A stretch of DNA of 64,000 nucleotides, taken from the NCBI GenBank assembly GCA_035714625.1, contig DASTLT010000169.1:3856-67855 (forward strand), written 5' to 3'. This document shows positions 22,850 to 39,229 of the stretch, piece after piece. Under the pieces are notes generated by a model. That model did no database searches, was not told the DNA's origin, and saw only the letters and a list, made by a program, of their open reading frames with translations. Position 1 is the first letter of the stretch. Each line of letters opens with the position of its first letter. The stretch is from Pseudonocardiaceae bacterium (GTDB lineage Bacteria; Actinomycetota; Actinomycetes; Mycobacteriales; Pseudonocardiaceae). Both the position numbers and the translations under genes were made by a program.

Positions 22850-22859
22850 CCGTCACGGA

Positions 22860-23603: not shown

Positions 23604-23889
23604 CGCTCACACTCCCCTCTGCGCGCGGCAGATAGCACTGCTGCCCACGCTTGACACCCGCCGCGCACCGGTGCGGACCGCGGCCTGGCCTGGAGTGGCC
23701 CAGGCGCCGGGCGGCCACGCACCCCGTTGCTAAACGGACCCACAGTGACGACTATCGCGACAGTCAAGACATCAAGACGCGATTGAGTCACAAGGGAGGC
23801 GCAGAGCATCACTCCCTCTGCCCCACGGCGGTGGAAGGTGTCGCAGACTGTCGTCATCGAGGCACGATCGGTCCTGGTGGGAGGTCACG

Positions 23890-25113: not shown

Positions 25114-25134
25114 CCCCACGTTGGAGGCGCACCC

Positions 25135-26429
25135 ATGTGCGGCAACGCCAACAGCAACGCCAACGGCAACGGCAACGGCACTGAGACCGCCCCACCCGGA
25201 TCGGTCGGCCACCGGCTGGCCCGCGCCCGCAAGCTGGCCGGGCTCACCCAACACCAGCTCGCCGCCCGCGCCCACGTCAGCAAGAGCCTGATCTCCCAAG
25301 TCGAACGCGGTGTGGTGCCCGCCTCCCCGGCATTCACCGCCGCCGTGGCCCGCGGGCTGGGCCTGGAGCCTCAGGCCCTGACCGGCGAACCCTACGGCCC
25401 GCCGATCACTGACCCAAGGCGGAGCATGCCGGGATCCCCGCCCTGCGCGCTGCCCTGGACAACGACGAAGACCCCGATCTCGAGGGCTTCCCGCTGACCC
25501 CCGCCGACCTGCGCACCCGCCTCGATACCTGCCAGGCCCAGCGGCAGAAGGCCCAGTACTCCCTGGTCATCGCTGCACTGCCGGACCTGCTCAATCACGT
25601 CTACGCCCTGGTGGCCGGCGCCCGACCCGGCAACGCAGCCGACACCGCATGGGCCCTGCTCGACGACGCCTACGAACTCGCCCAGGTCGTCTGTCTGCGG
25701 TTCGGCTACTACGACCTGGGAGCACTGGCCGCCCGGTGCGGGCGCGACGCCGCCACCAAGGCCGGAGACCCCGTGCGCGCCGCCGTGGCGGCCTTCCGCT
25801 ACACCGGCGCGCGGCTGCGCCGCGGTGATCACGCGGGTGTACTCCGAGCCCTCGACCGTGCTCACGGTCTGATCGAGAGCGAGCACTCACCCACCGCCGA
25901 CGCCGTACGAACCGTCGTGCACCTGCGCCAGGCGCGGGTCCAGGCCCGGCTGGGGGCACGGGATCGGGCCGATGAGCACGTCGGCGAGGCACGTCGGCTG
26001 CTGGTCAGCGGCATACCCACCCGCCCCTACTACAGCGTGAACGCGACACCGGCCAACATCGAAATGCACCACGTCGAAGTGCCCGTCGAACTCGCCGACG
26101 GCACCACCGCCGTCAGCCGAGCCGAACAGGTCCAGTTCCTCCCCGATACTCATGCCACCATCGCCGGCCACCACTGGGTCAACGTCGCCCGCGCCTGGAC
26201 CCTGCACGGTGATCGCGCCAAGGCCCTCGCCGCGCTGCAGGAGGCCCGCCGGATCGCCCCCCAGCAGACTCGCTACCACCCCAGCGTGCACGAAACCGTG
26301 CACCTGCTCGCCGAGCACGGCCGCCGCGCCACCGACTCCCTCGCTGGCTTCGCCCGCTGGGCCGGCATCACCCTTGAGGCCCGGTGTCCGCACCGTGATG
26401 GAGTCCCAACCGAGCGCGGTGCCTTGTGA
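25135..26429 (+). pseudogene. XRE-family regulator paralogue interrupted by a -1 frameshift
   Basis: Frame 1 (25135-~25418) gives HTH ...GLTQHQLAARAHVSKSLISQVERG...EPYGPPITDP. The alignment to the upstream paralogue (ITDPDADHAGIPALRAAL) continues only in the next frame as EHAGIPALRAALDNDEDPD... from about 25421 to the stop at 26429. Confidence 0.6.
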
Positions 26430-26519
26430 AACTCTTGCGAGTCGCACCGGTGACCGATTGACCAGATTTAGCACTCACTCAGCTACTGTCAGTCTGTATT
26501 GATGCCTGGGGGCCGTGTG

Positions 26520-26732
26520 ACTGCTTCCACCGATCGAGGCGCATTCTGGGCCGGGACGCAGCCGGGCTCGCTGAGCACGTGGCCGAACAGCTGCGGATCT
26601 GGCACCGGGAACACCACGACGGCGCCGCCCGCAGTATCCGCGTCTACCCGGCCGGGCACGCCCGACGACCAGCTCCCCGGAGGGCGTGTCATCGAGAAGA
26701 CGCATAGCCGCCTCGCGATCTCCTGGCCGATG
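26520..26732 (+). pseudogene. relic 3-prime end (~70 codons) of a second FxLD-system methyltransferase, frameshifted and without its stop
   Basis: Two frames together read RRILGRDAAGLAEHVAEQLRIWHREHHDGAARSIRVYPAG / TPDDQLPGGRVIEKTHSRLAISWP. This aligns with the C-terminus of the intact enzyme (FRIYGHGPGGERLAEEYVDLIQAWDRDHRGGSGARITVYPADTPNSQLPEGRVIDKKHTRVVISWP*). Confidence 0.55.
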
Positions 26733-26813
26733 TCAAGTTCTACAAAGACCATCCCACCCCTACTCGGTGGATGCCTTTGCATTCCGAACCCAACCCACTG
26801 GAGAGTAACCCCG

Positions 26814-28040
26814 TTGAGCACACTCCGAGACAGGAACGTCAGCGCTGCTGACGGCACCACCCGTGAGAAGATGGTCCGCGAACTGCGTGAGCTGGGGGCG
26901 ATCCACAGCGACTCGGTCGCGGCTGCCGTCAGCACGGTGCCGCGGCACCTGTTCGCTCCTGGTGAGCCGCTGGACACGGTGTACGCCGCCACCCGTTCCA
27001 TCGTCACCAAGAGGAACGAGCACGGCGCGGCGATCAGTTCGCTGTCCGAGTCGCACATTCAGGCGACCATGCTGGAACAGGCCCAGATCGAACCTGGCAT
27101 GCGGGTTCTGGAGATCGGAACGGGCGGCTACAACGCGGCGTTGATCGCCGAACTTGTCGGCGAGTCAGGCCAGGTGACCTCCGTCGACATCGACCCCGAC
27201 ATTGTCGATCGAGCCCGGAGCTGCCTGGCTGCGGCGGGTTACGACCAGGTCAACGTGGTGTTGGCCGATGCCGAGCACGGCGTGCCGGACCGCGCTCCGT
27301 TCGACCGGGTCATCGTGACCGCCGCGGCGTGGGACATCCCACCGGCGTGGACTGACCAGTTGGCCGGGGACGGGCGAATCGTCGTCCCGCTCCGGATGCG
27401 CGGATTGACCCGCTCGGTGAGCTTGGAGCGCGGAGAACACCACTTGGTGAGCCGAGACTACAAGCTCTGCGGGTTCGTGCCGATGCAAGGCGCCAGCGCC
27501 CACAGCGAGCGGGTAATCCCCCTCGATGAGGGGAAGGTCACGCTGCAGATCGACGGAGACCAGCCGGTTGATTCGGACCGTTTGCGGGATGCATTGTTCA
27601 GTCCACGAGTCGAGCGTCGGGTGTGCACATTTAGAGCCGGCGAACCTCTCCACGACCTGGACATGTGGGTTATCACCGTTGTGGACGATTTCGGCCTGCT
27701 GAAAGCGACAGAGGAAGCGATCGACAGCGAACTGGTTAGCAAAACCACACGCCTAGGTGGCAGAGCAGTCATAGCAGGTGGGAGTTTCGCGTACCGGGCA
27801 TTCCCGCAACCAATAGACGGCAGTCGTACGAAGTTCCAATTCCGCATCTATGGGCATGGTCCGGGCGGTGAACGCCTCGCCGAGGAATACGTGGACCTGA
27901 TCCAGGCGTGGGATCGGGACCACCGAGGTGGTTCGGGTGCACGGATAACGGTGTACCCGGCGGATACGCCCAATAGTCAGCTTCCCGAAGGTCGGGTCAT
28001 CGACAAGAAGCACACGCGAGTCGTCATCTCCTGGCCCTGA
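26814..28040 (+). CDS. protein-L-isoaspartate O-methyltransferase-like enzyme of the FxLD lanthipeptide system (LanS-type)
   Basis: PIMT fold: VSTVPRHLFAP, SAM motif VLEIGTGGYNAALIAELVG, VTSVDID. It also has the ~190-aa C-terminal extension typical of 'methyltransferase, FxLD system'. Proposed TTG start at 26814, 8 nt after GGAGAG (alternative ATG 26871). The 513-aa ORF-track version includes the upstream relic. Confidence 0.8.
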   Translation: MSTLRDRNVSAADGTTREKMVRELRELGAIHSDSVAAAVSTVPRHLFAPGEPLDTVYAATRSIVTKRNEHGAAISSLSESHIQATMLEQAQIEPGMRVLEIGTGGYNAALIAELVGESGQVTSVDIDPDIVDRARSCLAAAGYDQVNVVLADAEHGVPDRAPFDRVIVTAAAWDIPPAWTDQLAGDGRIVVPLRMRGLTRSVSLERGEHHLVSRDYKLCGFVPMQGASAHSERVIPLDEGKVTLQIDGDQPVDSDRLRDALFSPRVERRVCTFRAGEPLHDLDMWVITVVDDFGLLKATEEAIDSELVSKTTRLGGRAVIAGGSFAYRAFPQPIDGSRTKFQFRIYGHGPGGERLAEEYVDLIQAWDRDHRGGSGARITVYPADTPNSQLPEGRVIDKKHTRVVISWP

Positions 28041-28104
28041 CAGCAGGATATCCAGGACCGAAAGCCCATAAGGCTCTCGGGTAACGCACGGGAAGGAGGA
28101 GTAC

Positions 28105-28275
28105 GTGACAGTTCAGGTGGATCAGATGGCGGTCGGAGTGGGCGATGCACAGTTCGATCTCGATGTTAGTATCGTCGAGTCCGGCCCTGTCATCAACGAT
28201 CTGATGCGTTTGACCGACGATGGCTGCGGAACCACGTGTGAGAGCGCCTGTACCGCCCAAAGCGGTTGTGGTTAG
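28105..28275 (+). CDS. FxLD-family class I lanthipeptide precursor (LanA), 56 aa
   Basis: Not in the ORF track (<60 aa). SD GGAAGGAGGA (28091-28100) then GTG 28105. Translation VTVQVDQMAVGVGDAQFDLDVSIVESGPVINDLMRLTDDGCGTTCESACTAQSGCG*. It has an FDLD leader box and a C-terminal 20 aa with 4 Cys and 6 Ser/Thr. It sits between the methyltransferase and LanB. Confidence 0.8.
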   Translation: MTVQVDQMAVGVGDAQFDLDVSIVESGPVINDLMRLTDDGCGTTCESACTAQSGCG

Positions 28276-28293
28276 CCCGGTCTGCTTTGACGC

Positions 28294-31200
28294 ATGTCCG
28301 TGGTCGTGGTGGCGGGGGCGTCACGTCTTCGCCACCACGCTGGTCCGAGTCCTGTGGGGGCGCGGTTGTACCGGTTTGTGGATGCGGCTGTGGTGCGGGC
28401 AGCGGTCTGCCTGCCTGGCGCGGTTCCGCCCTGGCCGGACTTGACCGGTGACACCGAAGAGCATGTGACGCAGTGGTGTCGCTGGCTGCAGCAGGTCTGG
28501 GCGACGGCGGGTTTCGCGGCGAGCGTTGAGGTCGCCAGCCCGACCCTGGCTCGCCGCATCTGGGAGATGTGCGACGGATATCGTCTGCCGACACGCCAAG
28601 TTCGGCGCGTGACGATTTCGGTCATCCGGTATCTGCTGCGAATGACAAGCCGTGCGACACCGTTCGGCTTGTTCTCCGGTGTGGCGCCGGTCGGGCTCGG
28701 GTCCGCACCCAAGATTTGGTTCGGTGAGAACCATCGCGCTGTCGCGCGGATCGATGCTGGATGGCTCGATGGGGTGATTACGCGCCTGGAGAACAGCCGC
28801 GAGCTGTGGCATCGGTTGCTGGTGGTGCGGAACAACCTCGCGTTCGTCCGCGACGGACGGCTGGTGGTGGGGTGCCAGCAGCAGGCTGGCGCAGCACGCG
28901 GGGCCGAGTCAGCGGAGGTATCGGTTCGCTACACCGAGGCCGTTCGGATTGTCCTGCAGGCCGCTGCGGCCCCTATTCGTCTGGGTGAGTTGGCCGGCAA
29001 GCTGGCGGCGGAGTTCCCGGACAGACCGGACGTCGTGATCAACGGGATGCTGGCCGGGTTGGTGGCGCAGCGCATGTTGGTCACCAACCTCCGCCCGCCG
29101 ATGACGGCCATCGATCCGCTGGCCCATGTCGTCAATGCGCTGGCCGCGGTGGGGGCCGACGCGGTGCCCGAGGTGGTCGGCCTGCTGAACGAGCTGCACG
29201 ACATCCACGCCGATCTGGCACGGCATAACGCCGCCTCACCCACCCAGGCCCGTAACCTCCGAGCGCGCGCCTTTCGCGGAATGGCGACGATCGTCACCGC
29301 TGAACGACCGGTCGCGGTGGACCTCCGGCTCGATGGCGGGTTGGTCCTGCCGCCCGCGGTGGTGCGGGAGGCTGAGAACACCGCAGCGGCGCTGGTCAGG
29401 CTGACCCCGCACCCGTTCGGCCCCCCGCGCTGGCAGGAGTACCATCGGCGGTTCTGCGAACGATATGGACTCGGTGCCCTGGTCGGCGTCCACGATTTGC
29501 TCGACGTCGACAGTGGACTCGGGTTTCCCGCCGGCTACCGCGATTCACGCCTGAACCACCCAGCCACCCCCGGTCTGACCGAGCGTGATGTGGCCCTGTT
29601 GGCGTTGGCGCAAAACGCCGCACTGCGGCAGCAAACGGATGTCGTGCTCGATGACACTATGATCGCCAACCTCTCGGCTGGGGCCGTTGACAAGATCCAG
29701 CCGCAGCCGCACACCGAGCTCCGGTGCCGCATCTACGCGCCCAGCACTGAGGCGCTCAGTCGGGGTGAATTCCAGCTCGCGATCACCGGGGTATCCCGCG
29801 CGGCCGGCACCACAACCGGGCGGTTTCTCGACCTTCTCGACGCTGCCGACCGAGACCGCATGTTCCACGCCTACGCCGCGCTTCCCACCGTCAGCGAGGA
29901 TGCCGTGCGGGTACAGGTATCCGGGCCTGCCCTGTACCCGCGTGCCGACAACATCGCCCGCTGCCCCGCCGTGCTGCCACACCTGCTGTCGCTGGCCGAA
30001 CACCATTCCGGCAACACCGGCATCATCCCATTGGACGACCTCGCGGTGAGCGCCGACAGCGAACGCCTCTACTTGATTTCGCTTTCCCGCCAGCGACCAG
30101 TGGAACCGACTGTGCTCAGCGCGGTGGAACTCACCAACCACGCCCATCCGCTCCTGCGGTTCCTGGTCGAGATCGCCACCGCTCGTACCGCGGCGTGCGT
30201 CCCCTTCACCTGGGGCGAGGCTGGGCGATTGCCATTCCTGCCGAGAATTCGCTACCGGCGTTCGATCTTGTGCCCGGCCATGTGGACGCTGACCGCGACC
30301 GACCTTCCGGGAGCAGCCGCGACGTGGCAGGAGTGGGTGGACAGCCTGGTCGCATGGCGAGACCAGTGCCGTGTTCCGGCCTCGGTCTACCTCGGCGATG
30401 GCGATCGGCGGATTCGCCTGGACTTGGCCGAACCCGCCCACCTCACCGTGCTGCGTACTGACCTGGAGCGCAACGGTCACGCCACGGTGCGCGAGGCGCC
30501 GGATGCCAGCGCGTTGGGATGGATCGACGGGCGTGCCCACGACATCGTTATTCCGCTCGCCGCCGCCCAGCCTGCTGCTCCGGGCCCGGCGCGATTGGAC
30601 CGCGTGCTCAGCCGCGAGCACGGGCATCTCCCTGGCAGCAGCGAGTGGCTCTACGTCAAGCTGTACGGGCACCCGGACCGGCAGACCGCCATCCTCACCA
30701 CGCACCTGTCCACCCTGCTGTCCACATGGGACAATGAACCTGACTGGTGGTTCCTGCGCTACCACGACCCCGAGAAGCATCTCCGCCTGCGCATCCGTCT
30801 CCGAGATGCTGGCGACTTCGGACCGGTCGCCGCGCGGATCGCCGAGTGGACAGCCGGGCTACGACGGCTCGGCCTCGTGGGCCAGGTGCAGTGGGACACC
30901 TACTACCCGGAGACCGGACGCTTCGGCAGGGACGCGGCGATGGCCGCGGCAGAGTCGGTGTTCGCCGCCGATTCGGCCGCGGTGATCGCCCAACTGCAAG
31001 CGACCAATCACCGTGGCCCGCACCCGCACGCCGTCATCGCCGCGAGCATGGTCGACCTGGCCATCACCGTCACCGGCAGTATCAGCAATGGGATGCGCTG
31101 GCTAATCAGCCACCTCCGCACGCCCTCCATCCCGGCCCCGCCCCGCGAGGTCCATCACCAAGCAATCCGCCTGGCCAATCCGCACAACGACTGGGCCGCA

Positions 31201-31446
31201 CTCCGGGCGATACCCGGCGGCGACGACATCGCGGCGTCGTGGACGCTACGGCGCACTGCGCTTGCCCGGTATCGCGACGCGCTCGCCACCGAGGACCAGT
31301 TCCCCCCGGACGCAGTGCTAGCGGATCTGCTGCACCTGCATCACGCCCGCATGTCAGGAATCTCCACGGACACCGAGTGGGCCTGCCGCCGCCTGGCCCG
31401 GGCCGCCGCCCTGAGCTGGACCGCGCGAACCCAAGGAGCCCCGTGA
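28294..31446 (+). CDS. class I lanthipeptide dehydratase LanB (full length: glutamylation + elimination domains)
   Basis: 1050 aa. N-terminal YRFVDAAVVRAAV...ASPTLARRI, typical of Lant_dehydr_N. C-terminal SpaB_C-type blocks WLYVKLYGHPDRQ, WWFLRYHDPEKHLRLRIRL, YYPETGRFG, LLHLHHARMSG. Confidence 0.9.
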   Translation: MSVVVVAGASRLRHHAGPSPVGARLYRFVDAAVVRAAVCLPGAVPPWPDLTGDTEEHVTQWCRWLQQVWATAGFAASVEVASPTLARRIWEMCDGYRLPTRQVRRVTISVIRYLLRMTSRATPFGLFSGVAPVGLGSAPKIWFGENHRAVARIDAGWLDGVITRLENSRELWHRLLVVRNNLAFVRDGRLVVGCQQQAGAARGAESAEVSVRYTEAVRIVLQAAAAPIRLGELAGKLAAEFPDRPDVVINGMLAGLVAQRMLVTNLRPPMTAIDPLAHVVNALAAVGADAVPEVVGLLNELHDIHADLARHNAASPTQARNLRARAFRGMATIVTAERPVAVDLRLDGGLVLPPAVVREAENTAAALVRLTPHPFGPPRWQEYHRRFCERYGLGALVGVHDLLDVDSGLGFPAGYRDSRLNHPATPGLTERDVALLALAQNAALRQQTDVVLDDTMIANLSAGAVDKIQPQPHTELRCRIYAPSTEALSRGEFQLAITGVSRAAGTTTGRFLDLLDAADRDRMFHAYAALPTVSEDAVRVQVSGPALYPRADNIARCPAVLPHLLSLAEHHSGNTGIIPLDDLAVSADSERLYLISLSRQRPVEPTVLSAVELTNHAHPLLRFLVEIATARTAACVPFTWGEAGRLPFLPRIRYRRSILCPAMWTLTATDLPGAAATWQEWVDSLVAWRDQCRVPASVYLGDGDRRIRLDLAEPAHLTVLRTDLERNGHATVREAPDASALGWIDGRAHDIVIPLAAAQPAAPGPARLDRVLSREHGHLPGSSEWLYVKLYGHPDRQTAILTTHLSTLLSTWDNEPDWWFLRYHDPEKHLRLRIRLRDAGDFGPVAARIAEWTAGLRRLGLVGQVQWDTYYPETGRFGRDAAMAAAESVFAADSAAVIAQLQATNHRGPHPHAVIAASMVDLAITVTGSISNGMRWLISHLRTPSIPAPPREVHHQAIRLANPHNDWAALRAIPGGDDIAASWTLRRTALARYRDALATEDQFPPDAVLADLLHLHHARMSGISTDTEWACRRLARAAALSWTARTQGAP

Positions 31447-32690
31447 GTCGACTCATTCCGGACGCGTTGGCCATGGCCACCGCGATCGCCTCCCGCTTGG
31501 CCGACCCGCACGCGGTCGGCACGCCCGGTGCTGTTGCAGGGGGCCGAGGTCGCCGTCGTCCCCAATCGCTGGCCGGCGGCGCAGCGGGTATCGCCCTGCT
31601 GCACATCGAACGCGCCTACACCGGCCACGGCGACTGGAACACGGCCCACGCCTGGCTGACTGCCGCCGTCCGCGACGAGTTGAGCGTCGGCCCCAACGCT
31701 GGCCTGTACTTCGGCGCGCCGACCCTGGCGTTCGTCACCAACGCCGCCGCCAACCAGCCCGGCAAGTACGAGCGAGCGCTCGCCCAACTCGACGCGAGCA
31801 CCGTTATCGTGACCCGACGCCGTCTCGACCGAGCCCATGCCCGCATCGACCGTGGCGAGCGGCCCCTGATGGCCGAGTTCGACGTCATCCGAGGCCTGAC
31901 CGGCTTCGGCGTCTACCACCTGCGGCGCCACCCGGACGATGACATCACGCGAGCCGTACTGTCCTACCTCGTCCGGCTGACCGAACCGCTTCCGGGCAGC
32001 ACCGACGGTCTACCGGGCTGGTGGACCGACGTTTCTCTGAACGGCGAGCCTTCACCGGACCTTCCCGGCGGTCACGGCAACTTCGGCATGTCGCACGGCA
32101 TCGCCGCCCCGCTGGCGTTGCTGTCGCTCGCCATGCTGCGGGGCGTCGTCGTGGAGGGACACACCGACGCCATCGCCCGGATCTGCGCCTGGCTGGACGC
32201 ATGGCAACAGGAGCACCCATCCGGTCCATGGTGGCCTGGGTACATCACCCTCGAACATGTCCACAAAGGACGTGTCGAGAACTCCAGCCAGCAATGCCCG
32301 TCGTGGTGCTACGGCACGCCCGGTGTTGCCCGCGCCCAACAACTCGCCGGTCTGGCTAGCGGCGATTTCGCACGGCAACGCACCGCCGAGGCGGCCATGC
32401 TCGGCTGCCTTCGCGATCCTGACCAACTCGACCGCCTCCCCGAAACGGGCCTGTGCCACGGCATGGCCGGCCTGTTCCAGACCGCTTGGCGGATGGCTGC
32501 CGACGCCAGCACACCCGACATCGCGGCTGAGTTGCCGGGGCTGGCGACAAGGCTGCTCGCCAGGTTCCGTGCGGCACCCGAGGAGGTGGAGTTCCTCGAC
32601 GGGCACGCGGGCGTGGCTCTCGCCCTGCACACCGCTGGAACCGACACCGCCCCGCTCACGCACTGGGACGCGTGCTTGCTTCTCGCCTAA
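31443..32690 (+). CDS. lanthionine synthetase C-family cyclase LanC
   Basis: GTG 31443 overlaps the LanB stop (GTGA). 415 aa. Motifs GAAGIALL, GHGNFGMSHGIAAPLALL, CPSWCYGTPGVA, GLCHGMAGL (Zn ligands Cys/Cys/His). The 647-aa ORF-track version is an out-of-frame upstream extension. Confidence 0.9.
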   Translation: MSRLIPDALAMATAIASRLADPHAVGTPGAVAGGRGRRRPQSLAGGAAGIALLHIERAYTGHGDWNTAHAWLTAAVRDELSVGPNAGLYFGAPTLAFVTNAAANQPGKYERALAQLDASTVIVTRRRLDRAHARIDRGERPLMAEFDVIRGLTGFGVYHLRRHPDDDITRAVLSYLVRLTEPLPGSTDGLPGWWTDVSLNGEPSPDLPGGHGNFGMSHGIAAPLALLSLAMLRGVVVEGHTDAIARICAWLDAWQQEHPSGPWWPGYITLEHVHKGRVENSSQQCPSWCYGTPGVARAQQLAGLASGDFARQRTAEAAMLGCLRDPDQLDRLPETGLCHGMAGLFQTAWRMAADASTPDIAAELPGLATRLLARFRAAPEEVEFLDGHAGVALALHTAGTDTAPLTHWDACLLLA

Positions 32691-32711
32691 CCACGAAGGA
32701 ACTCCACCAGC

Positions 32712-33602
32712 ATGAACGATGACCTCGATCCGCACCCCGCGCAGCATTCCTGGCGTCAGGTGTTCATCCACTTCCACGACTACGCCGTTGCCGAACACAT
32801 CAGCAGCGTCCACATCGGTCTGGAACTGGCCAGCGCCGAGACGGCCAGGCAGATCTCGTCGTGGTTCTTCACGCGCAAGAACCCGTGCTGGCGACTGCGT
32901 TTCCGGCCAGCGCGTGACAGCGCCGAACAGAATGGGGCGTTCGTCCATCAGCGACTCGACAGGTTGCAAGCCGCCGGCCACATTGCGAACTGGGTCGAGA
33001 CCCTCTACGAACCAGAGACCTACGCCTTCGGCGGCGCGGAAGGTATGACCCTGGCTCACCGCCTCTTCCACGCCGACAGCCGACACATCCTCGCCTACCT
33101 CGCCAACCAAGGCGCGAACACGTCCGGCGGCCGCGGCGACCAACGGCGCGAGCTGTCCGTGCTGCTGTGCAGCATCCTGATGCGCAGCGCGAGACAAGAC
33201 TGGTACGAACAGGCAGACATCTGGGCACGCGTCGCCGAGTTCCGGCCCCATCCACCCGGCACGCCCTCCGGCTCGCTGAGCCGCCTGGAATCCGGCGTCC
33301 GGCGGCTGATGACCGTGGACACGAGCCCCGCCAGCCCTCTCCTGCAGGAACGCGGATCGAGGGCCTTTCTCTCCGAGTGGGCCGCGGCCTTCGCCGACGC
33401 AGGCCAGACCCTGGGCGAGCTTGCCCGCAACGGCACGTTGCGCCGGGGTCTGCGCGCCGTCCTCGCGCACCACATCATCTTCCACTGGAACCGGCTCGGT
33501 CTGCCATCCACTACGCAAAGCCTGCTCGCTTACACCGCCAAGGCGGTCGTCCTGGGCAGTGATGAGAGTGGCGCGGTCCCCGGCACCACCGAGGTCTGCT
33601 GA
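32712..33602 (+). CDS. stand-alone LanB C-terminal-like (SpaB_C / 'thiopeptide-type bacteriocin biosynthesis') domain protein
   Basis: 296 aa. WRQVFIHFHD..., SSWFFTRKNPCWRLRFRP, LYEPETYAFGG and LAHHIIFHWNRLGL parallel the elimination-domain blocks of the adjacent LanB. Confidence 0.75.
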   Translation: MNDDLDPHPAQHSWRQVFIHFHDYAVAEHISSVHIGLELASAETARQISSWFFTRKNPCWRLRFRPARDSAEQNGAFVHQRLDRLQAAGHIANWVETLYEPETYAFGGAEGMTLAHRLFHADSRHILAYLANQGANTSGGRGDQRRELSVLLCSILMRSARQDWYEQADIWARVAEFRPHPPGTPSGSLSRLESGVRRLMTVDTSPASPLLQERGSRAFLSEWAAAFADAGQTLGELARNGTLRRGLRAVLAHHIIFHWNRLGLPSTTQSLLAYTAKAVVLGSDESGAVPGTTEVC

Positions 33603-33705
33603 AGTATCAGGAATGACCACCACTGTCAGCGACGCTTTCGTGGTCTTCGCCGACGAGCTGGGCCTCACGCTGACCGGCGAGCTGTGAGCGGTGAGGAGTG
33701 ACGGG

Positions 33706-34812
33706 ATGGACGCCACCGGGCCGTTGGCTCGCCGCTTTCCGCTCGTCGCCCGCCTACGCCCGGCCTGCACTCCTCTCCCCCAGCGCGTGGCGGACCTGTG
33801 CGACCGAGCCCGGAAGGCCGAACGGGACAGCGACCTGGCAGCCGCAGCCGCCGTCCACAACCTGGCAGCGCTCGTTGCCTCGGACTGCGGCCTACCCAAC
33901 CTGGCCCGACAGTGGTGTCACCGCCAAGCGAACCTGTACCTGCGCGCCTGTCCCCTGAGCGCTCAGGCAGCGCGTCACGCCCTCGAACCGCTGATCAACC
34001 TTGCCCGTCTGCACATCCGCGACGGCCAGGGCGAGCGCGCCTTCGACCTCGTCGACGCCCTCTACACCGCTGTCTGCGCCCGCACCCATGCCACCATCGA
34101 CGGCGTGGAGATACCCGCTCACCTCATCCATTCCCGGGAGGCACATCAGGAAGTCCGCCGCTGGCTGTGGGCGGTCCTGCTGGCCACCGGTGCCCGCGCT
34201 CTCGCCACCGCCGGACACTGGCAGGAAGCCTGCGCCTGCCTGCGCGACCACAAGGGCATCGGCCGCCGCATGCTCGACGGCCGCCAAGTCGCGGTCATTG
34301 CCCACGCCACGTCCGGGGACACCGAAGAGGCCCTCGCCCTTCTGGACGGCACCGAGCACGGAGAGCCATGGGAGAACGCGGTCACTGCCTGCCTCACCAT
34401 GCAATGCCGCAGCGGCTCGGGCACCGCGAGCCTGGAGCCCCTCCTGGACCACTACCGCGTGCTCGGCACCCCGGCACCTGGCGTGGCGGTCTTTCACACC
34501 CGCCTGGGCCTGTCCTTCCTCGACGCCATCGGCATCCCCGGCAACCCCCTCGCACACCGGATCGCCACCGACCTGATCGGCTATACCACCGCTGCGCAAG
34601 ACGGATACGCCGCCCGTGACCTCCTCGCCCACAGCGGCTGCAACCACCTCCTCACCGACACCCAAACACACGAACTGACCGGCCTGGTCGAAGCATGCGC
34701 GCTCGGACGCGGCACGTTCCCCGCGACGCTGCTGGCGGCTCTCACGACCGCGCTGGCCAGCGTTGACGAGGTCATCGCGCGCACGGTAGCGGGCAAGAGA
34801 AGGGCATACTGA
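33706..34812 (+). CDS. hypothetical all-helical (TPR-like repeat) protein co-oriented with the lanthipeptide genes
   Basis: ATG 33706 lies 7 nt after GAGGAG (the ORF-track GTG 33691 is less likely). 368 aa, Ala/Leu/His-rich with a repeating helical character. No catalytic motif recognised. Confidence 0.5.
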   Translation: MDATGPLARRFPLVARLRPACTPLPQRVADLCDRARKAERDSDLAAAAAVHNLAALVASDCGLPNLARQWCHRQANLYLRACPLSAQAARHALEPLINLARLHIRDGQGERAFDLVDALYTAVCARTHATIDGVEIPAHLIHSREAHQEVRRWLWAVLLATGARALATAGHWQEACACLRDHKGIGRRMLDGRQVAVIAHATSGDTEEALALLDGTEHGEPWENAVTACLTMQCRSGSGTASLEPLLDHYRVLGTPAPGVAVFHTRLGLSFLDAIGIPGNPLAHRIATDLIGYTTAAQDGYAARDLLAHSGCNHLLTDTQTHELTGLVEACALGRGTFPATLLAALTTALASVDEVIARTVAGKRRAY

Positions 34813-35006
34813 CGTTCCCTGAACGAACAGCCATCCTCGCCGGTCGGGCTCACGTAGGGCGTGCACTATGGGGCTCCGGGCCGCCGTGTCGCATCCCGGC
34901 ACGGCTCGTAAGGCGTGGGCGCGGTGTCGACGAAGGCTTTGGACGGATCGAACGGATCGAGCAGCTCCCGAGGACCGGGCGAAAGCATTCTTTAGCGAAC
35001 GGCCGG

Positions 35007-35597
35007 GTGTGGTCGCTTGCCGCGAATCGAGATCACATCATGGCTGCCTGCGGTGATGGCCAGGTGCGGGTGTGGTCGTTACGCGATGAAAGGGGACCAC
35101 TCACCTTCAACGACGACCAGGAGCGTACGTGGTCGGTGACCGCACCCCAGGCCCAGTATCTCGCCGCCAGTACCGGCGACGGGCATGTTCGGTTATGGGA
35201 TCTGGTTTCTGGAGAGATGCTGTGGGAGCGTGATGCCGACGCGGGCCGGGTGCGATCTGTAGTTGATCCACCCGGCACTCGATTGGCTGTCGGCTCAGGC
35301 ACCGGCGACATCTACGTACGCGACGTTGTCGTCGGCAGGTTCACGGCCCACCTTCCCGACCATAGGGGCCGCGTGCTGATGCTGGGTTTCCCTGCCAACC
35401 CCGACCGGCTGATTTCCGCGGCTGCGGACGGTACAGCGAGGATCTGGTCGCTGAGCGAGCAGCGCCAGATCGCCGAGGTGCGGATCGACGCCTCGCTGCA
35501 CTGCGCAGCATACGACCCGACGACTGGCCGTCTGCTCGCGGCCAGCGCCGCCGGTCTCGCCATGGTGACCGTCGACCTCCCCTGTCCGGGACAGTGA
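35007..35597 (+). CDS. WD40-repeat protein fragment (about 4-5 blades; probably a truncated remnant)
   Basis: Repeats ending GDGQVRVWSL, GDGHVRLWDL, GTGDIYVRDV, ADGTARIWSL. Too short for a 7-bladed propeller. It contains TTA Leu codons and no convincing start or SD. Its stop overlaps the next start (GTGA). Confidence 0.55.
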   Translation: MWSLAANRDHIMAACGDGQVRVWSLRDERGPLTFNDDQERTWSVTAPQAQYLAASTGDGHVRLWDLVSGEMLWERDADAGRVRSVVDPPGTRLAVGSGTGDIYVRDVVVGRFTAHLPDHRGRVLMLGFPANPDRLISAAADGTARIWSLSEQRQIAEVRIDASLHCAAYDPTTGRLLAASAAGLAMVTVDLPCPGQ

Positions 35598-36799
35598 AGG
35601 AACTACTAAATATGCCCAAGGCAGCTCACGAGGAGCCACTAGCCGACGCACCGCCAATTCTTAGCAATGTGCCCGGATCATTCGCCTGGGGTGTTTTCCA
35701 CCAGCGGCATCCCGCCCTGGTGAAGCAGATACGCGACGCCTTCCCCTACCCTCCCGCCCAGGATAACGCGGTCGCCCGTCTCGGCAGGAGTCCTCGGCGG
35801 GACTGATCGCACCACTGGGTCGGCACGCGCATGATCATGAGGCGTGGGATGACTGGGGTCGGGACTACTTCGGTCAGCGGTGGATCGATGTTCCCTTTCT
35901 ATGGGCGGAGAGCTATTTCTACCGCAGGCTCCTCGACGCCACCGGATTCTTCGAACCTGGTCCGTGGGCCGGTATCGACCCTTTCGCACCGTTCAAGAAT
36001 GCCGAACTGGGTGACGCCTCGCTCGATACCGAGCTCGCGGTGCTGGACGACGTGCTGTCGCTGCCCGCGACCGAGCAAGCGTCCGGATTGCTGCACGCAT
36101 CGCTGTGGGGCAACCGCGCGGACCTGGGGTTCAGGATCTCGGCTGGAGCGACCGCAGGACCTGATGAGGTGACCGGCCTCGTGGCCGATGACCGCGCGCT
36201 GCTGTGGTCGATGCTAACCAGCCGGTCACTGCGGAGATCTGCCTGGTGGCCGACAATGCCGGGCGCGAACTGCTCTCTGACCTGGTTCTCATCGACCACC
36301 TGTTGTCGGGCGGCCACGCGGACACGGCGACGCTGCACATCAAGCCCCACCCGTACTACATCTCCGACGCGACCACTGCAGACCTGATCGCGTGCTTGTG
36401 CCGACTCGCCTGCGCCCCAGCGCGGCTCGCCAAGGTAGGCAAACGGTTGTGGCAAGCCATCCAGACCGGGCAGCTCGTCGTACAGACCCATGCCTTCTTT
36501 TGCGCGCCGTTGTCGTATCATTATATGCCGGCTGATCTCGCTGCGCGGTTTAGCTCGGCATCGCTCACGGTCATGAAGGGCGACCTGAACTACCGGCGGT
36601 TCGTCGGCGACTGCCAGTGGCCGGCGACGACACCTTTCGGCTCCTTGGCCCGTTACTTTCCCAGGCCGGTCGCCGCGCTGCGCACGCTGAACCCGACGTC
36701 GTCGTCGGCATCGACGTGCCGGTGCGGTCGGCGTTGGACGCCACTGGCGAGCAATGGCGAACGAACGGCACCCGCGCCCTGATTCAGGTGCGACCATAG
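35594..36799 (+). pseudogene. DUF89 / ARMT1-like damage-control phosphatase gene with at least three -1 frameshifts
   Basis: Homology runs through three reading frames with one return: SFAWGVFHQRHPALVKQIRDAFPYPP (35594 frame); ESSAGLIAPL...WIDVPFLWAESYFYRRLLDATGFF...LHASLWGNRADLG (shift ~35782); ICLVADNAGRELLSDLVLIDHLL...MKGDLNYRRFVGD (shift ~36200); DVVVGIDVPVRSALDATGEQWRTNGTRALIQVRP* (shift ~36693). Confidence 0.65.
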
Positions 36800-36982
36800 G
36801 AATCCCGGGTCGGCGCCGACCGATGCCAAGTGATTGTGGTGATCTGTCTGGGACGGGAGACCACCATGATCCGCGATGGGGGCAGATGCGATGGACGATA
36901 CCAGCCGCGATAACGTCACGTCCCAAGACGGGGCCGGGATCTGTCCGATCCCGGTGCCCACAAACGGGAGGAAGGCAGCCGG

Positions 36983-37714
36983 ATGGCGGTGGATGGAGTG
37001 CACGGTGCAGGGGCGTTCAGCCAGGCGACCGGCCGCATTGCCGGGGAGGAAGCGGGCCCGGACAAGCCCCGCTACCGGCAGTTTCAGCATGACCTGATCG
37101 CCCCGCACTGCGGCCGATCGGTGCTGGAGGTCGGTGCTGGCCTGGGCGAGTTCGCCGAGCAGTTGACCGACCTGGATCGGCTCGTGGTGACCGACGTGGA
37201 CCCCGAGGCGGTGGCGGTGATGCGACGGCGGTTCGCCGGACGGCCCGAGGTGCAGGTGCGCCAGCTCAACCTCGAGTCGGGTCTGGAACTTGACGAGCCG
37301 GTCGACACCGTGGTCACCATCAACACCCTGGAGCACATCGAGGACGACGTCGCGGCACTGCGCTCGCTGGCCCGGCTCGTCGTGCCCGGCGGCACCATCG
37401 TGCTGTGGGTCCCCGGTTACCAGCAACTCTATGGCGACTTTGACCGTAAGGTCGGCCACGTCCGCCGTTACACCCCGGCCACGCTGACCGCGAGCTTCCA
37501 GGCAGCAGGGTTGGTGCCCACCCTGGTCAAGCCGGTCAACCTGCTCGGGGGCATCGCCTGGTGGGCAGCCGTGCGCCGGAGCGGCACCGGATCACCCAAC
37601 CCTCGTCTGGTCGCCGTCTACGATCGCGTGCTCGTCCCGATGACCCGCGCGCTGGAGCGCCTGGTCCGGGTCCCCTTCGGCCAGTCCATCCTCGGGGTGG
37701 CACGGTGCTCGTGA
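36983..37714 (+). CDS. class I SAM-dependent methyltransferase
   Basis: 243 aa. SD GGGAGGAAGG precedes the ATG. Motif I VLEVGAGLGEFAEQL, acidic loop VVTDVD, motif TINTLEHIEDD. Confidence 0.75.
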   Translation: MAVDGVHGAGAFSQATGRIAGEEAGPDKPRYRQFQHDLIAPHCGRSVLEVGAGLGEFAEQLTDLDRLVVTDVDPEAVAVMRRRFAGRPEVQVRQLNLESGLELDEPVDTVVTINTLEHIEDDVAALRSLARLVVPGGTIVLWVPGYQQLYGDFDRKVGHVRRYTPATLTASFQAAGLVPTLVKPVNLLGGIAWWAAVRRSGTGSPNPRLVAVYDRVLVPMTRALERLVRVPFGQSILGVARCS

Positions 37715-37753
37715 GTGGCATTCGGTGCTCCCGCACCGAATGCCACTCACGAG
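37708..37753. terminator. perfect 21-bp stem / 4-nt loop hairpin between the convergent methyltransferase and glnA genes
   Basis: CTCGTGAGTGGCATTCGGTGC-TCCC-GCACCGAATGCCACTCACGAG. It overlaps the methyltransferase stop (37712-37714) and has no U-tract on either side. Confidence 0.6.
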
Positions 37754-37786
37754 GCGCAGCCCATGACGTCGTAGTAGCGGGGCCTA

Positions 37787-39229
37787 TCAGACGTCGTAGT
37801 AGAGGGCGAACTCGAAGGGGTGCGGGCGCAGCCGCAGCGGGTCAATCTCATTCTCCCGCTTGAGGGCGATCCAGGTCTCGATCACGTCCGAGGTGAAGAC
37901 GCCGCCCTCGAGCAGGTAGTCGTGGTCGGCCTCCAAGCGGTTGATCACCGCGTCCAGGCTCGATGGCACCTGGGCGACGTTGCTGGCCTCCTCGGGTGGC
38001 AGCTCGTAGAGGTCCTTGTCGATCGGAGCGGGGGGCTCGTAGGCGTTCTTGATCCCGTCCAGCCCGGCCATCATCATCGCGGAGAAGGCCAGGTAGGGGT
38101 TGCCTGACGAATCCGGGCAGCGGAACTCGATGCGCTTGGCCTTCGGGTTGTTCCCGGTGATCGGGATCCGGATGCAGGCCGAGCGGTTGCGCTGCGAGTA
38201 CACCAGGTTCACCGGTGCCTCGAACCCGGGTACCAGTCGGTGGTAGGAGTTCACCGTCGGGTTGGTGAACGCCAGCAGCGACGGCGCGTGGTGCAGGATG
38301 CCGCCGATATAGTGCCGGCCGATGTCGGAGAGCCCGGCATACCCGGACTCGTCGTGGAACAGTGGCGCCCCGTCGGCCCACAGCGACTGGTGGGTGTGCA
38401 TGCCGGAGCCGTTGTCCCCGAACAGCGGTTTGGGCATGAAGGTCACGGTGCGACCGTCCGCCCACGCGGTGCTCTTGACGATGTACTTGTATAGCTGCAG
38501 ATCGTCGGCTGCATGCAGCAGGGTGTTGTACTTGTAGTTGATCTCTGCCTGTCCGGCGGTGCCCACCTCATGGTGCGCCTTCTCCACGGTGAAGCCGCAA
38601 CTGATGAGGTTCGTGACGATCCGGTTGCGCAGGTCGGCGAAGTGGTCGGTCGGAGGCACCGGGAAGTAGCCACTCTTGTAGTTGACCTTGTAGCCCTTGT
38701 TGCCGCCCTCCTCGTCGGCTCCGGTGTTCCACCAGCCCGCCACCGAGTCGATCTCGTGGAACGCGGCGTTGGGTGTGGTGTCGAAGCGCACCGAGTCGAA
38801 CATGTAGAACTCGGCCTCGGGGCCGAAGTACGCGGTATCGGCAATCCCGGTGGAGGCCAGGAACTCCTCGGCCTTGCGGGCTACGTTGCGTGGATCGCGA
38901 CTGTAGGGCTCCCGGGTGAACGGGTCGTGCACGAAGAAGTTCAGGTTCAACGTCTTCTGCGCCCGGAAGGGGTCGATACGGGCTGTTGCGGGGTCGGGCA
39001 GCAGCAGCATGTCCGACTCGTGGATCGACTGGAACCCGCGCACCGACGAGCCGTCGAAGGCCAGGCCCTCCTCGATGACGTCTGCGTCGAAGTAGGCGGC
39101 CGGGACCGTGAAATGCTGCATGACGCCCGGCAGGTCGCAGAAGCGGACGTCGATGAACTCGACGCCCTCATCGGCGATGAAGCGCAGGACCTCATCGGAG
39201 TTGGTGAACACCCTCGTTCGCTCCTTCAT
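37787..39229 (-). CDS. glnA: glutamine synthetase type I
   Basis: 480 aa. [58 protein letters not shown], and the adenylylation-site region NLYELPPEE. Confidence 0.92.

What the first reader, a model, noticed from the sequence alone, without database searches (positions are those of the whole stretch)
32712..33602. Second, stand-alone elimination-type (SpaB_C / thiopeptide-type) domain although LanB already carries its own
Seen in sequence: the 1050-aa LanB has a well-formed C-terminal elimination domain (WWFLRYHDPEKHLRLRIRL, YYPETGRFG, HLHHARMSG). Even so, a separate 296-aa protein with the same block structure (WFFTRKNPCWRLRFRP, YEPETYAFGG, HHIIFHWNRLG) follows lanC by 21 nt. Established knowledge: stand-alone SpaB_C proteins normally complement split (N-terminal-only) LanBs, or act as [4+2] cycloaddition enzymes in thiopeptide/pyritide pathways. 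Inference: there is no YcaO, no split LanB and only two Ser in the core. Its role is therefore unclear; it could be a substrate-specific glutamate eliminase, a leader-binding or scaffold subunit, or a repurposed catalyst.
Basis: partly seen in the sequence, partly recalled or inferred. Interest (0 to 1): 0.6.

Follow-up and report, generated by a model that had tools for sequence, protein, structure and literature searches.

The report
Second glutamate lyase sets lanthipeptide stereochemistry
The extra 296-residue "elimination domain" gene after lanC is real, but it is an ordinary member of an already described enzyme family, the syn-type glutamyl lyases, which work beside a complete LanB to give one thioether ring an unusual stereochemistry in the anti-phage "lanthivirin" lanthipeptide clusters of actinomycetes.

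Summary
A 296-aa Lant_dehydr_C/TIGR03891 protein (32712-33602) starts 21 nt after lanC, and the 1050-aa LanB keeps an intact elimination domain of its own.

The function is not unknown. The protein carries the residue signature that Sarksian and van der Donk (2022) use to define syn-glutamyl lyases (SptBb, the CoiSA lyase domain):
- Lys56 where NisB has Tyr776
- Arg61/Arg63 kept (NisB Arg784/786)
- Glu102 kept
- Ala105 in place of Arg826
- Ile256 in place of the His961 base

These motifs line up without gaps with CoiSA K46/R51/R53/E89.

The cluster is methyltransferase, FxLD precursor, LanB, LanC, lyase, CoiH-like gene. That is the published coi / lanthiphage (LphE-A-B-C-D-F) layout. All 20 related loci sampled keep LanC immediately before the lyase, and 19 also show a full-length LanB.

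In a tree the extra lyases form one clade apart from LanB C-domains. Stand-alone forms are the commonest (119 of 135 representatives).

The most likely role is syn-elimination of selected glutamyl-Thr residues to (E)-Dhb, which gives D-allo-L-methyllanthionine. It is a new member of a known kind and of low interest.

Side observations: the genome holds at least seven such clusters, and some LanBs have degenerate lyase domains.

The parts
26499..28040 (+). FxLD-system protein-isoaspartate-type O-methyltransferase (LanS_A / LphE). It has no fused lyase domain. The true start is probably near 26814.
   Evidence: TIGR04364 E 5.1e-169 over residues 121-512; PF01135 E 1.4e-41. Homologues align only from about residue 90-120 onward. 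The first ~105 codons look non-coding.
28105..28275 (+). FxLD-type class I lanthipeptide precursor (LanA). It has an FDLD leader motif and the core ...TDDGCGTTCESACTAQSGCG.
   Evidence: TIGR04363 E 1.1e-17; translation. The core fits the lanthiphage motif TxDxCxxxCxxxC (bioRxiv 10.1101/2024.06.26.600839).
28294..31446 (+). Full-length LanB dehydratase: a glutamylation domain plus a canonical (anti-type) elimination domain.
   Evidence: PF04738 E 6.9e-220 and PF14028 E 1.7e-47. Y823, R831, R833, E873, R876 and H1014 align with NisB Y776, R784, R786, E823, R826 and H961.
31443..32690 (+). LanC cyclase; its start overlaps the LanB stop by 4 nt.
   Evidence: PF05147 E 2.7e-37; sequence at the junction.
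32712..33602 (+). Stand-alone syn-type glutamyl lyase (LphD; equivalent to the CoiSA lyase domain). This is the finding.
   Evidence: PF14028 and TIGR03891 hits. K56, R61, R63, E102, A105 and I256 form the signature. The AF2 model (pLDDT 87.4) best matches the elimination domains of MibB, MadB and NisB. It sits in the clade of extra lyases, apart from LanB C-domains.
33691..34812 (+). LanH / CoiH / LphF-like protein, the family reported to oxidise the A-ring methyllanthionine to a sulfoxide. The probable start is ATG 33706.
   Evidence: No Pfam or NCBIfam hit. D65, N103, R106 and L338 match the CoiH-essential D59, N97, R100 and L332 at a constant +6 offset. A homologue follows the lyase, directly or after the methyltransferase domain or gene, in 10 of 20 related loci. 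It is homologous to the C-terminal halves of lyase fusion proteins, E 4e-44.

Best explanation
The 296-aa protein is a stand-alone syn-glutamyl lyase of the SptBb / CoiSA(ED) family (LphD in the lanthiphage nomenclature). The proposed pathway, all inferred by homology, is as follows. The N-terminal domain of LanB glutamylates Ser/Thr of the FxLD precursor using Glu-tRNA(Glu). The canonical C-terminal lyase of LanB removes glutamate from some residues by anti-elimination, giving Dha or (Z)-Dhb. The stand-alone lyase removes glutamate from one or more particular glutamyl-Thr residues by net syn-elimination, giving (E)-Dhb. Lys56 is the likely base, Arg61/Arg63 hold the glutamyl gamma-carboxylate, and the Arg/His of anti-lyases are absent. 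LanC then adds Cys to both alkene isomers, so the product contains a D-allo-L-methyllanthionine ring alongside DL/LL rings. The methyltransferase modifies the conserved Asp of the TDDGC ring, and the downstream CoiH-like protein probably oxidises that ring's thioether. By family membership the whole cluster is a coi-type 'lanthivirin/lanthiphage' cluster, a family reported to defend actinomycetes against phages. Shown here: domain identity, residue signature, fold, synteny and phylogenetic placement. Inferred: the chemistry, which Thr is the target (by position, most likely the Thr of ...ACTAQ..., corresponding to CoiA1 Thr57) and the anti-phage role.
For: (1) Family hits: PF14028 E 4.1e-27 and TIGR03891 E 8.7e-58.
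(2) The residue signature matches the published definition of syn-lyases (PMC9486935 section 9 and SI Fig. S1): a Lys at the anti-lyase Tyr, a hydrophobic residue at NisB Arg826, no His base, and the Arg pair and Glu kept. Here these are K56, A105, I256, R61/R63 and E102. The mapping comes from the NisB alignment, MAFFT and a profile-versus-MibB alignment.
(3) The published CoiSA(ED) mutagenesis primers decode to FLRK46-HPWW-R51-L-R53-YRP and YEP-E89-ETAF. P0001 reads FTRK56-NPCW-R61-L-R63-FRP and YEP-E102-TYAF, which is gapless. The CoiSA motif LRAVIAHHGIFHFNRLGLP compares with P0001 LRAVLAHHIIFHWNRLGLP.
(4) R55, K56, R63, E102 and A105 are invariant in 40 of 40 homologues and R61 is kept in at least 90%. 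The signature is kept in the lyases of the 20 family loci and in three of the four other copies in this genome; the C26 copy has Gly at A105. Position 256 is never His.
(5) LanB's own lyase keeps all six NisB key residues, so two different lyases coexist, as in coi.
(6) Synteny of MT-LanA-LanB-LanC-lyase(-LanH) holds in all 20 sampled family loci. 35 of 151 family genomes have a homologue at E<=1e-25.
(7) In the tree the extra lyases form one clade (SH-aLRT 100) separate from LanB C-domains, with MT-fused (CoiSA-type) and stand-alone forms interleaved.
(8) The AF2 model (pLDDT 87.4, pTM 0.86) best matches the MibB/MadB/NisB elimination domains.
(9) Experiments in the literature show that the isolated CoiSA lyase domain works in trans with CoiB/CoiC, that K46A accumulates glutamylated peptide, and that D-allo-L-MeLan depends on it (PMC9011353, PMC9486935). 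SptBb makes (E)-Dhb by NMR (PMC9890492).
Against: No experiment exists on this protein or on any naturally stand-alone member that I could find. Only the excised CoiSA domain and the split-system SptBb have been tested. Identity to MT-fused relatives is only about 42-49%. I could not retrieve the S. coelicolor CoiSA sequence for a full-length alignment, so that comparison rests on primers and an OCR-read supplementary alignment. The R51A, R53A and E89A mutants of CoiSA(ED) were only mildly impaired, so conservation of those residues says little about mechanism. Which Thr is the target here, and whether LanC accepts an (E)-Dhb, are unknown.
Confidence: 0.85

Rival explanations
1. It is a second, substrate-position-specific lyase with ordinary anti stereochemistry. 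It only helps LanB finish eliminations that LanB's own domain handles poorly, giving (Z)-Dhb or Dha, and has no stereochemical consequence.
For: CoiB alone completes only one of three eliminations, so a helper role exists in any case. The fold and the gamma-carboxylate Arg pair are shared with anti-lyases.
Against: The two residues needed for anti-elimination in NisB (Arg826, His961) are replaced by Ala105 and Ile256, and this holds across the family apart from one Gly. The Lys that marks syn-lyases is invariant. In the family members tested, the product stereochemistry does change.
Confidence: 0.07
2. It is a non-catalytic subunit, either a leader- or peptide-binding scaffold or a partner that positions the peptide for the methyltransferase or the CoiH-like enzyme.
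For: It is frequently fused to the methyltransferase or to the CoiH-like protein, as a docking module might be. The anti-lyase catalytic Arg and His are missing.
Against: The putative active-site residues K56, R63 and E102 are invariant and R61 is nearly so, which a scaffold would not require. CoiSA(ED)-K46A accumulates glutamylated intermediates, so the homologous domain is catalytic. In paralogous clusters where LanB's lyase residues are degenerate, this protein is the only plausible lyase.
Confidence: 0.04
3. It is a repurposed catalyst of the pyridine-synthase kind ([4+2] aza-cyclase, as TbtD/PbtD/TclM), or carries out some other new chemistry on the dehydrated peptide.
For: The same superfamily and fold: TbtD, PbtD and related cyclases are hit by Foldseek at E 1e-6 to 1e-3. 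The core has two Ser that could in principle become two Dha.
Against: LanB elimination domains are the better structural matches (E about 1e-8). There is no YcaO or azoline-forming machinery on the contig. The precursor is a typical FxLD lanthipeptide whose Cys pattern is used for thioether rings. The sequence groups with the tested glutamyl lyases.
Confidence: 0.02

Closest known systems
CoiSA elimination domain, CoiSA(ED), of the coi cluster, Streptomyces coelicolor A3(2) (Sarksian et al. 2022, PMC9011353; Sarksian & van der Donk 2022, PMC9486935)
   Same: It is an extra lyase beside a full-length, catalytically intact LanB in an FxLD, methyltransferase-containing class I cluster that also has a CoiH-like gene. 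The motifs are the same: FxRK...WRLR, YEPE..AFGG and LRAV.AHH.IFH.NRLGLP, with K/R/R/E at equivalent, gaplessly aligned positions. The excised CoiSA domain is active on its own in trans.
   Different: Here the lyase is a separate gene after lanC, not the N-terminal domain of the methyltransferase, and the methyltransferase gene lies upstream of the precursor. Identity to MT-fused relatives is only about 42-49%. This protein is untested.
Stand-alone extra glutamyl lyases of coi-like clusters (category 3 in PMC9486935; LphD of the lanthiphage/lanthivirin clusters, Shomar et al., bioRxiv 10.1101/2024.06.26.600839)
   Same: Exactly this architecture: a PF14028-only protein plus full-length LanB, LanC, a PF01135 methyltransferase and the hypothetical protein LphF/LanH, with the core motif TxDxCxxxCxxxC.
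   Different: None in kind. In the papers read here this category was described bioinformatically only.
SptBb, the split-LanB glutamyl lyase of SapT biosynthesis (PMC9011353, PMC9890492)
   Same: The same active-site constellation (Lys, no His, hydrophobic residue at the Arg826 position). It was shown by NMR to make (E)-Dhb.
   Different: SptBb is the only lyase of a split LanB system, whereas here a second, canonical lyase is present in LanB. SptBb belongs to a different group of the published sequence-similarity network (group 10 versus group 2).
NisB / MibB / MadB C-terminal elimination domains (PDB 4WD9, 6M7Y, 5EHK, 9G04)
   Same: The same fold (Foldseek E about 1e-8, TM 0.6-0.7 on the query), the same gamma-carboxylate Arg pair and the same conserved Glu.
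   Different: The Arg826 and His961 equivalents are lacking and Lys replaces Tyr776. Sequence similarity is so low that phmmer finds no PDB hit, and the family profile reaches only E 0.006.

Membership tests
Lant_dehydr_C / thiopeptide-type bacteriocin biosynthesis domain (PF14028, TIGR03891) | Score above the curated cut-off over the whole domain | tested here: met
   PF14028 96.4 bits (cut-off 24.4), profile 1-253/255. TIGR03891 196.3 bits (cut-off 48.45), 1-263/263.
Lant_dehydr_C / thiopeptide-type bacteriocin biosynthesis domain (PF14028, TIGR03891) | Fold of the LanB elimination domain | tested here: met
   AF2 model pLDDT 87.4, pTM 0.86. Top Foldseek PDB hits are MibB, MadB and NisB at E 1e-8 to 5e-7, TMq 0.61-0.70.
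syn-glutamyl lyase (SptBb / CoiSA(ED) type) | Conserved Lys at the position of the anti-lyase Tyr (NisB Y776; CoiSA K46) | tested here: met
   K56 in FTRK. It aligns with the Tyr of MibB and gaplessly with CoiSA FLRK46 decoded from the published primers. It is invariant in 40 of 40 homologues and in every extra-lyase copy examined.
syn-glutamyl lyase (SptBb / CoiSA(ED) type) | Hydrophobic residue (Ala/Leu) in place of NisB Arg826 | tested here: met
   A105 in YEPETYAFGG versus YDQEVERYGG (NisB) and YYPETGRFG (own LanB).
syn-glutamyl lyase (SptBb / CoiSA(ED) type) | No His at the position of the NisB His961 base | tested here: met
   I256. The position is Ile or Leu in all family copies examined.
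syn-glutamyl lyase (SptBb / CoiSA(ED) type) | Arg pair for the glutamyl gamma-carboxylate (NisB R784/R786; CoiSA R51/R53) and conserved Glu (NisB E823; CoiSA E89) retained | tested here: met
   R61, R63 and E102.
syn-glutamyl lyase (SptBb / CoiSA(ED) type) | Encoded in a class I lanthipeptide cluster with a glutamyl-transferase (LanB N-domain) and LanC | tested here: met
   The gene order is MT-LanA-LanB-LanC-lyase here, and all 20 relatives keep LanC directly upstream of the lyase.
syn-glutamyl lyase (SptBb / CoiSA(ED) type) | Groups with tested or MT-fused syn-lyases rather than with LanB C-domains | tested here: met
   One clade of 139 extra lyases (SH-aLRT 100, branch 1.95) excludes the 7 LanB C-domains of this genome, and MT-fused forms are interleaved. 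The true CoiSA and SptBb sequences could not be included.
syn-glutamyl lyase (SptBb / CoiSA(ED) type) | Catalyses net syn-elimination of glutamyl-Thr to (E)-Dhb, leading to D-allo-L-MeLan | not testable with these tools
   This needs co-expression, MS, chiral amino-acid analysis and NMR.
canonical anti-glutamyl lyase (NisB-type) | Catalytic Arg826 and His961 equivalents present | tested here: not met
   A105 and I256 occupy these positions. LanB in the same cluster does meet the test (R876, H1014).
pyridine synthase / [4+2] aza-cyclase (TbtD, PbtD, TclM) | Thiopeptide or pyritide context: YcaO/azoline machinery, a split LanB and a Ser/Cys-rich thiopeptide core | tested here: not met
   No PF02624 on the contig. 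LanB is full length. The precursor is TIGR04363 FxLD lanthipeptide. The cyclases are weaker Foldseek hits than the LanBs.
lanthiphage / lanthivirin (coi-like) class I lanthipeptide cluster | LphB, LphC, LphD (PF14028), LphE (PF01135), LphF and the core motif TxDxCxxxCxxxC | tested here: met
   All six components are present. The core TDDGCGTTCESAC fits the motif.
lanthiphage / lanthivirin (coi-like) class I lanthipeptide cluster | Confers anti-phage defence | not testable with these tools
   This needs phage challenge of an expressing laboratory Streptomyces strain.
LanH / CoiH (for the downstream 373-aa ORF) | Residues essential in CoiH (D59, N97, R100, L332), and a position downstream of the lyase in coi-like clusters | tested here: met
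   D65, N103, R106 and L338 sit at a constant +6 offset. Homologues of 32-66% identity lie downstream of the lyase, directly or after the methyltransferase, in 10 of 20 loci. The CoiH sequence itself was not available for alignment.

The most novel reading that the evidence does not exclude
The stereochemistry-setting lyase may be an exchangeable module that physically partners with the CoiH-like oxidase. Lyase-LanH fusion proteins exist. In this cluster the lyase's nearest relatives (56-59% identity, loci L021-L024) come from different clusters than those of the LanH, methyltransferase and precursor (61-67%, loci L040 and L035-L038, where the lyase is only 40-42% identical). Together with at least seven paralogous clusters in one 4.6-Mb genome, which show three lyase regimes (no extra lyase; two intact lyases; dead LanB lyase plus syn-lyase), this would point to rapid combinatorial diversification of ring stereochemistry, perhaps driven by phage pressure.
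Probability: 0.25. Interest if true: 0.45.

Novelty: new member of a known kind. Interest (0 to 1): 0.15.

Why it matters
For annotation, these proteins are still named 'thiopeptide-type bacteriocin biosynthesis protein' in public records. They can instead be called syn-glutamyl lyases from a five-residue signature, which predicts a D-allo-L-methyllanthionine ring in the product. For this window it means the cluster is a complete coi-type lanthivirin cluster, not a puzzling hybrid. No open question becomes newly testable, because the kind of enzyme, its chemistry and this gene arrangement have all been published. A naturally stand-alone member has apparently not yet been assayed, so this or a close relative would be a convenient small enzyme for structural work on syn-elimination.

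Tried and rejected
(1) I tried to fetch the S. coelicolor coi locus by a degenerate DNA pattern for the CoiA1 leader (NANTIKGxAHSP) in genome contigs. There were no matches.

(2) The search for related loci with the CoiSA-like fusion protein P0201 returned only its own source, Streptomyces boluensis. No full-length alignment to the tested CoiSA was therefore possible. I used the published mutagenesis primers and the OCR text of SI Fig. S1 instead.

(3) phmmer of the protein against PDB sequences gave no hit even at E<=1. The family profile was needed.

(4) The supplement of PMC9011353 holds no searchable text for CoiSA or SptBb.

(5) 'Functional split' was rejected for this cluster, because LanB keeps all six NisB key residues. 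It does seem to apply to paralogous clusters on contigs C173 and C30.

(6) A thiopeptide or pyritide reading was rejected: there is no YcaO on the contig and the precursor is of the FxLD type.

(7) MAFFT first placed K56 against the Lys of LanB's 'PEK'. The HMM alignment to MibB, the paper's own alignment and the gapless match to CoiSA favour the Tyr position. The three-residue deletion makes this the one alignment-dependent point.

Full report
**Observation.** The ORF at 32712-33602 (+) encodes 296 residues. It has an ATG start with an AAGGA box about 9 nt upstream, and it begins 21 nt after the lanC stop at 32690. It matches Pfam Lant_dehydr_C (PF14028) at E 4.1e-27 over the whole profile, and NCBIfam TIGR03891 at E 8.7e-58.

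The upstream 1050-aa LanB (28294-31446) carries a full Lant_dehydr_N domain (E 6.9e-220) and its own Lant_dehydr_C domain (E 1.7e-47).

**Surroundings.** The genes on the + strand run as follows:
- an FxLD-system isoaspartyl-type O-methyltransferase (26499-28040; TIGR04364 E 5e-169, with no lyase domain fused)
- an FxLD precursor (28105-28275; TIGR04363 E 1e-17; core ...TDDGCGTTCESACTAQSGCG)
- LanB
- LanC (31443-32690)
- the 296-aa protein
- a 373-aa ORF with no Pfam or NCBIfam hit (33691-34812)

The block sits between glnE and glnA. No YcaO lies on this contig.

**What the literature already says.**
- Walker et al. 2020 (PMC7268733) noted class I clusters with a full-length LanB plus an additional elimination-domain homologue, often fused to a PCMT methyltransferase.
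- Sarksian et al. 2022 (PMC9011353) and Sarksian & van der Donk 2022 (PMC9486935) showed that these extra domains are a distinct class of glutamyl lyase. SptBb and the lyase domain of CoiSA lack the His base and the Arg826-type Arg of NisB-like (anti) lyases. They carry a conserved Lys (CoiSA K46) where anti-lyases have Tyr, and they are required for D-allo-L-methyllanthionine.
- SptBb produces (E)-Dhb, shown by NMR (PMC9890492).
[quoted passage not shown] The window shows the third setting.
- Shomar et al. (bioRxiv 10.1101/2024.06.26.600839) name the same components LphB, LphC, LphD (PF14028), LphE (PF01135), LphDE (fusion) and LphF (hypothetical). They show that clusters of this family defend Streptomyces against phages.
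- A 2026 preprint (10.64898/2026.08.26.747419) shows that CoiH (= LphF) oxidises the A-ring methyllanthionine to a sulfoxide.

**Residue-level test.** Aligning LanB's C-domain to NisB gives these equivalences: Y823 = Y776, R831/R833 = R784/R786, E873 = E823, R876 = R826 and H1014 = H961. LanB is therefore a complete canonical dehydratase, and this is not a functional split.

In the 296-aa protein the corresponding positions are K56, R61/R63, E102, A105 and I256. A profile of 40 homologues aligned to MibB places K56 on the Tyr and A105 on the Arg.

The CoiSA(ED) mutagenesis primers in the supplement of PMC9486935 decode to F-L-R-K46-H-P-W-W-R51-L-R53-Y-R-P and Y-E-P-E89-E-T-A-F. The window protein reads F-T-R-K56-N-P-C-W-R61-L-R63-F-R-P and Y-E-P-E102-T-Y-A-F. 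This is a gapless correspondence. The C-terminal motif is also nearly the same: LRAVIAHHGIFHFNRLGLP in CoiSA (OCR of SI Fig. S1) against LRAVLAHHIIFHWNRLGLP here.

K56, R63, E102 and A105 are invariant in 40 of 40 homologues, and R61 is kept in at least 90% of them. The signature is kept in the lyases of the 20 family loci and in three of the four other copies in this genome. The copy on contig C26 has Gly at the A105 position. Position 256 is never His.

**Fold.** An AlphaFold2 model built on 40 sequences has pLDDT 87.4 and pTM 0.86. Its best PDB matches are the elimination domains of MibB, MadB and NisB (E 1e-8 to 5e-7, TM 0.61-0.70 on the query). Thiopeptide [4+2] cyclases (TbtD, PbtD and others) are weaker hits.

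**Distribution and context.** An exhaustive HMMER search found 1175 representatives at E<=1e-3 and 217 at E<=1e-30. Of the 135 best representatives that could be classified:
- 119 are stand-alone
- 11 are fused to the methyltransferase (the CoiSA architecture)
- 5 are fused to a homologue of the downstream 373-aa ORF

In a maximum-likelihood tree all extra lyases form one clade (SH-aLRT 100). They are separated by a long branch from the seven LanB C-domains of this genome, and fused and stand-alone forms are interleaved. The stand-alone form is thus the common one, not an oddity.

In the window's taxonomic family, 35 of 151 genomes (22 of 60 genera) have a homologue at E<=1e-25. In all 20 loci fetched around such homologues, LanC lies directly upstream of the lyase. 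A full-length LanB lies upstream in all 19 loci where sequence was available. The methyltransferase and precursor complete the same order as here.

**The downstream ORF.** The 373-aa protein has D65, N103, R106 and L338, and CoiH needs D59, N97, R100 and L332. The offset is a constant +6, or +1 if translation starts at ATG 33706. Homologues of 32-66% identity lie downstream of the lyase, directly or after the methyltransferase domain or gene, in 10 of the 20 loci. The protein aligns end to end with the C-terminal halves of lyase fusion proteins (E 4e-44 and 1e-32). It is therefore a LanH/CoiH/LphF family member, and the cluster is a complete coi-type (lanthivirin) cluster.

**Mechanism (inferred).**
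1. LanB glutamylates the Ser/Thr residues of the core.
2. LanB's own lyase performs anti-elimination at some sites.
3. The stand-alone lyase performs syn-elimination at one or more glutamyl-Thr residues to give (E)-Dhb. Lys56 is the likely base.
4. LanC cyclises both isomers, giving a D-allo-L-MeLan ring among DL/LL rings.

In CoiA1 the D-allo-L ring derives from Thr57, in the C-terminal overlapping rings. By position, the Thr of ...ACTAQ... is the most likely counterpart here, but this is a guess.

**Rivals.** Three alternatives were considered: a merely auxiliary anti-lyase, a non-catalytic scaffold, and a [4+2]-type catalyst. The residue signature, the invariant Lys, the published K46A result, the absence of thiopeptide machinery and the structural ranking all disfavour them.

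**Limits.** I could not obtain the CoiSA or SptBb sequences for a full alignment or for the tree. The alignment of K56 to the Tyr depends on how a three-residue deletion is placed. No naturally stand-alone member appears to have been assayed.

**Verdict.** This is a correct observation of an ordinary, already explained feature. It is a new, untested member of the syn-glutamyl lyase family in its most common (stand-alone) form. An earlier follow-up in this scan had already assigned the neighbouring precursor gene of this cluster to the lanthivirin family.

Noticed in passing
Genome contigs C169 (window), C231+C119, C196, C173, C30(+C205), C26, C148: This 4.59-Mb genome (322 contigs, so binning caveats apply) holds FxLD/lanthivirin-type LanB+LanC clusters on at least seven contig groups, with seven distinct FxLD precursors found. 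Extra syn-type lyases occur on five groups, and C148 has none. The 2024 lanthiphage preprint reports zero to six per genome.
   Followed up: partly
Genome contigs C173, C30, C196; family loci L030, L031, L032, L037: Some full-length LanBs that sit next to a syn-lyase have degenerate elimination domains. The NisB R784/R786 pair is replaced (V/A and C/F), and E823 or R826 is often lost as well, while His961 is kept. C196 has lost only the Arg pair. These look like 'hidden' functional splits, unlike the window's LanB, which keeps all six residues.
   Followed up: partly
Genome contigs C231 (38326-42945) and C119 (162-1286): The closest paralogous cluster (MT 68%, LanA 61%, LanB 66-73%, LanC 74% identity) is decayed. 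LanB is in two frames, LanC lacks about 65 residues, and the lyase is reduced to a 31-residue remnant (..YEPETYAFG) fused in frame to the LanC remnant. C231 also holds a second precursor and methyltransferase fragments near 33956-34738.
   Followed up: partly
Proteins P0128, P0133, P0151, P0222, P0229; loci L023, L025, L029, L033, L037: Fusion proteins joining the syn-lyase to a LanH/CoiH-like domain exist (34% identity to the window's 373-aa ORF over its full length, E 4e-44). In several family loci the two lie in one open frame. I did not see this fusion mentioned in the papers read.
   Followed up: partly
window 26499-34812 versus loci L021-L024 and L035-L040: The relationships are mosaic. 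The lyase is closest (56-59%) to clusters whose LanH is only 37-39% identical or absent. The LanH (61-66%) is closest to clusters whose lyase is only 40-42% identical, and in L040 the methyltransferase (63%) and precursor (67%) are closest too. This suggests module exchange between clusters.
   Followed up: no
window 26499-26813: The first ~105 codons of the 513-codon methyltransferase ORF have no homology to any related methyltransferase and translate to low-complexity sequence. The real start is probably near TTG 26814 or later.
   Followed up: partly
window 23890-26429: There are two tandem paralogous HTH + TPR-like regulators. The second copy (about 25189-26429) is read in two frames, with a shift near 25413-25440, so it is either frameshifted or mis-assembled.
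   Followed up: no
window 19820-39229: The whole lanthipeptide block, together with a Prim-Pol-like gene and a WD40 fragment, lies between glnE (19820-22849) and glnA (37787-39229, minus strand). GC content is somewhat lower here (0.65-0.69) than in the flanks (0.72-0.75).
   Followed up: no
Representatives (e.g. P0098, P0129, P0144): 52 of 119 stand-alone lyase representatives carry an N-terminal extension of more than 40 residues ahead of the domain. The window's protein lacks this extension, and its function is unknown.
   Followed up: no
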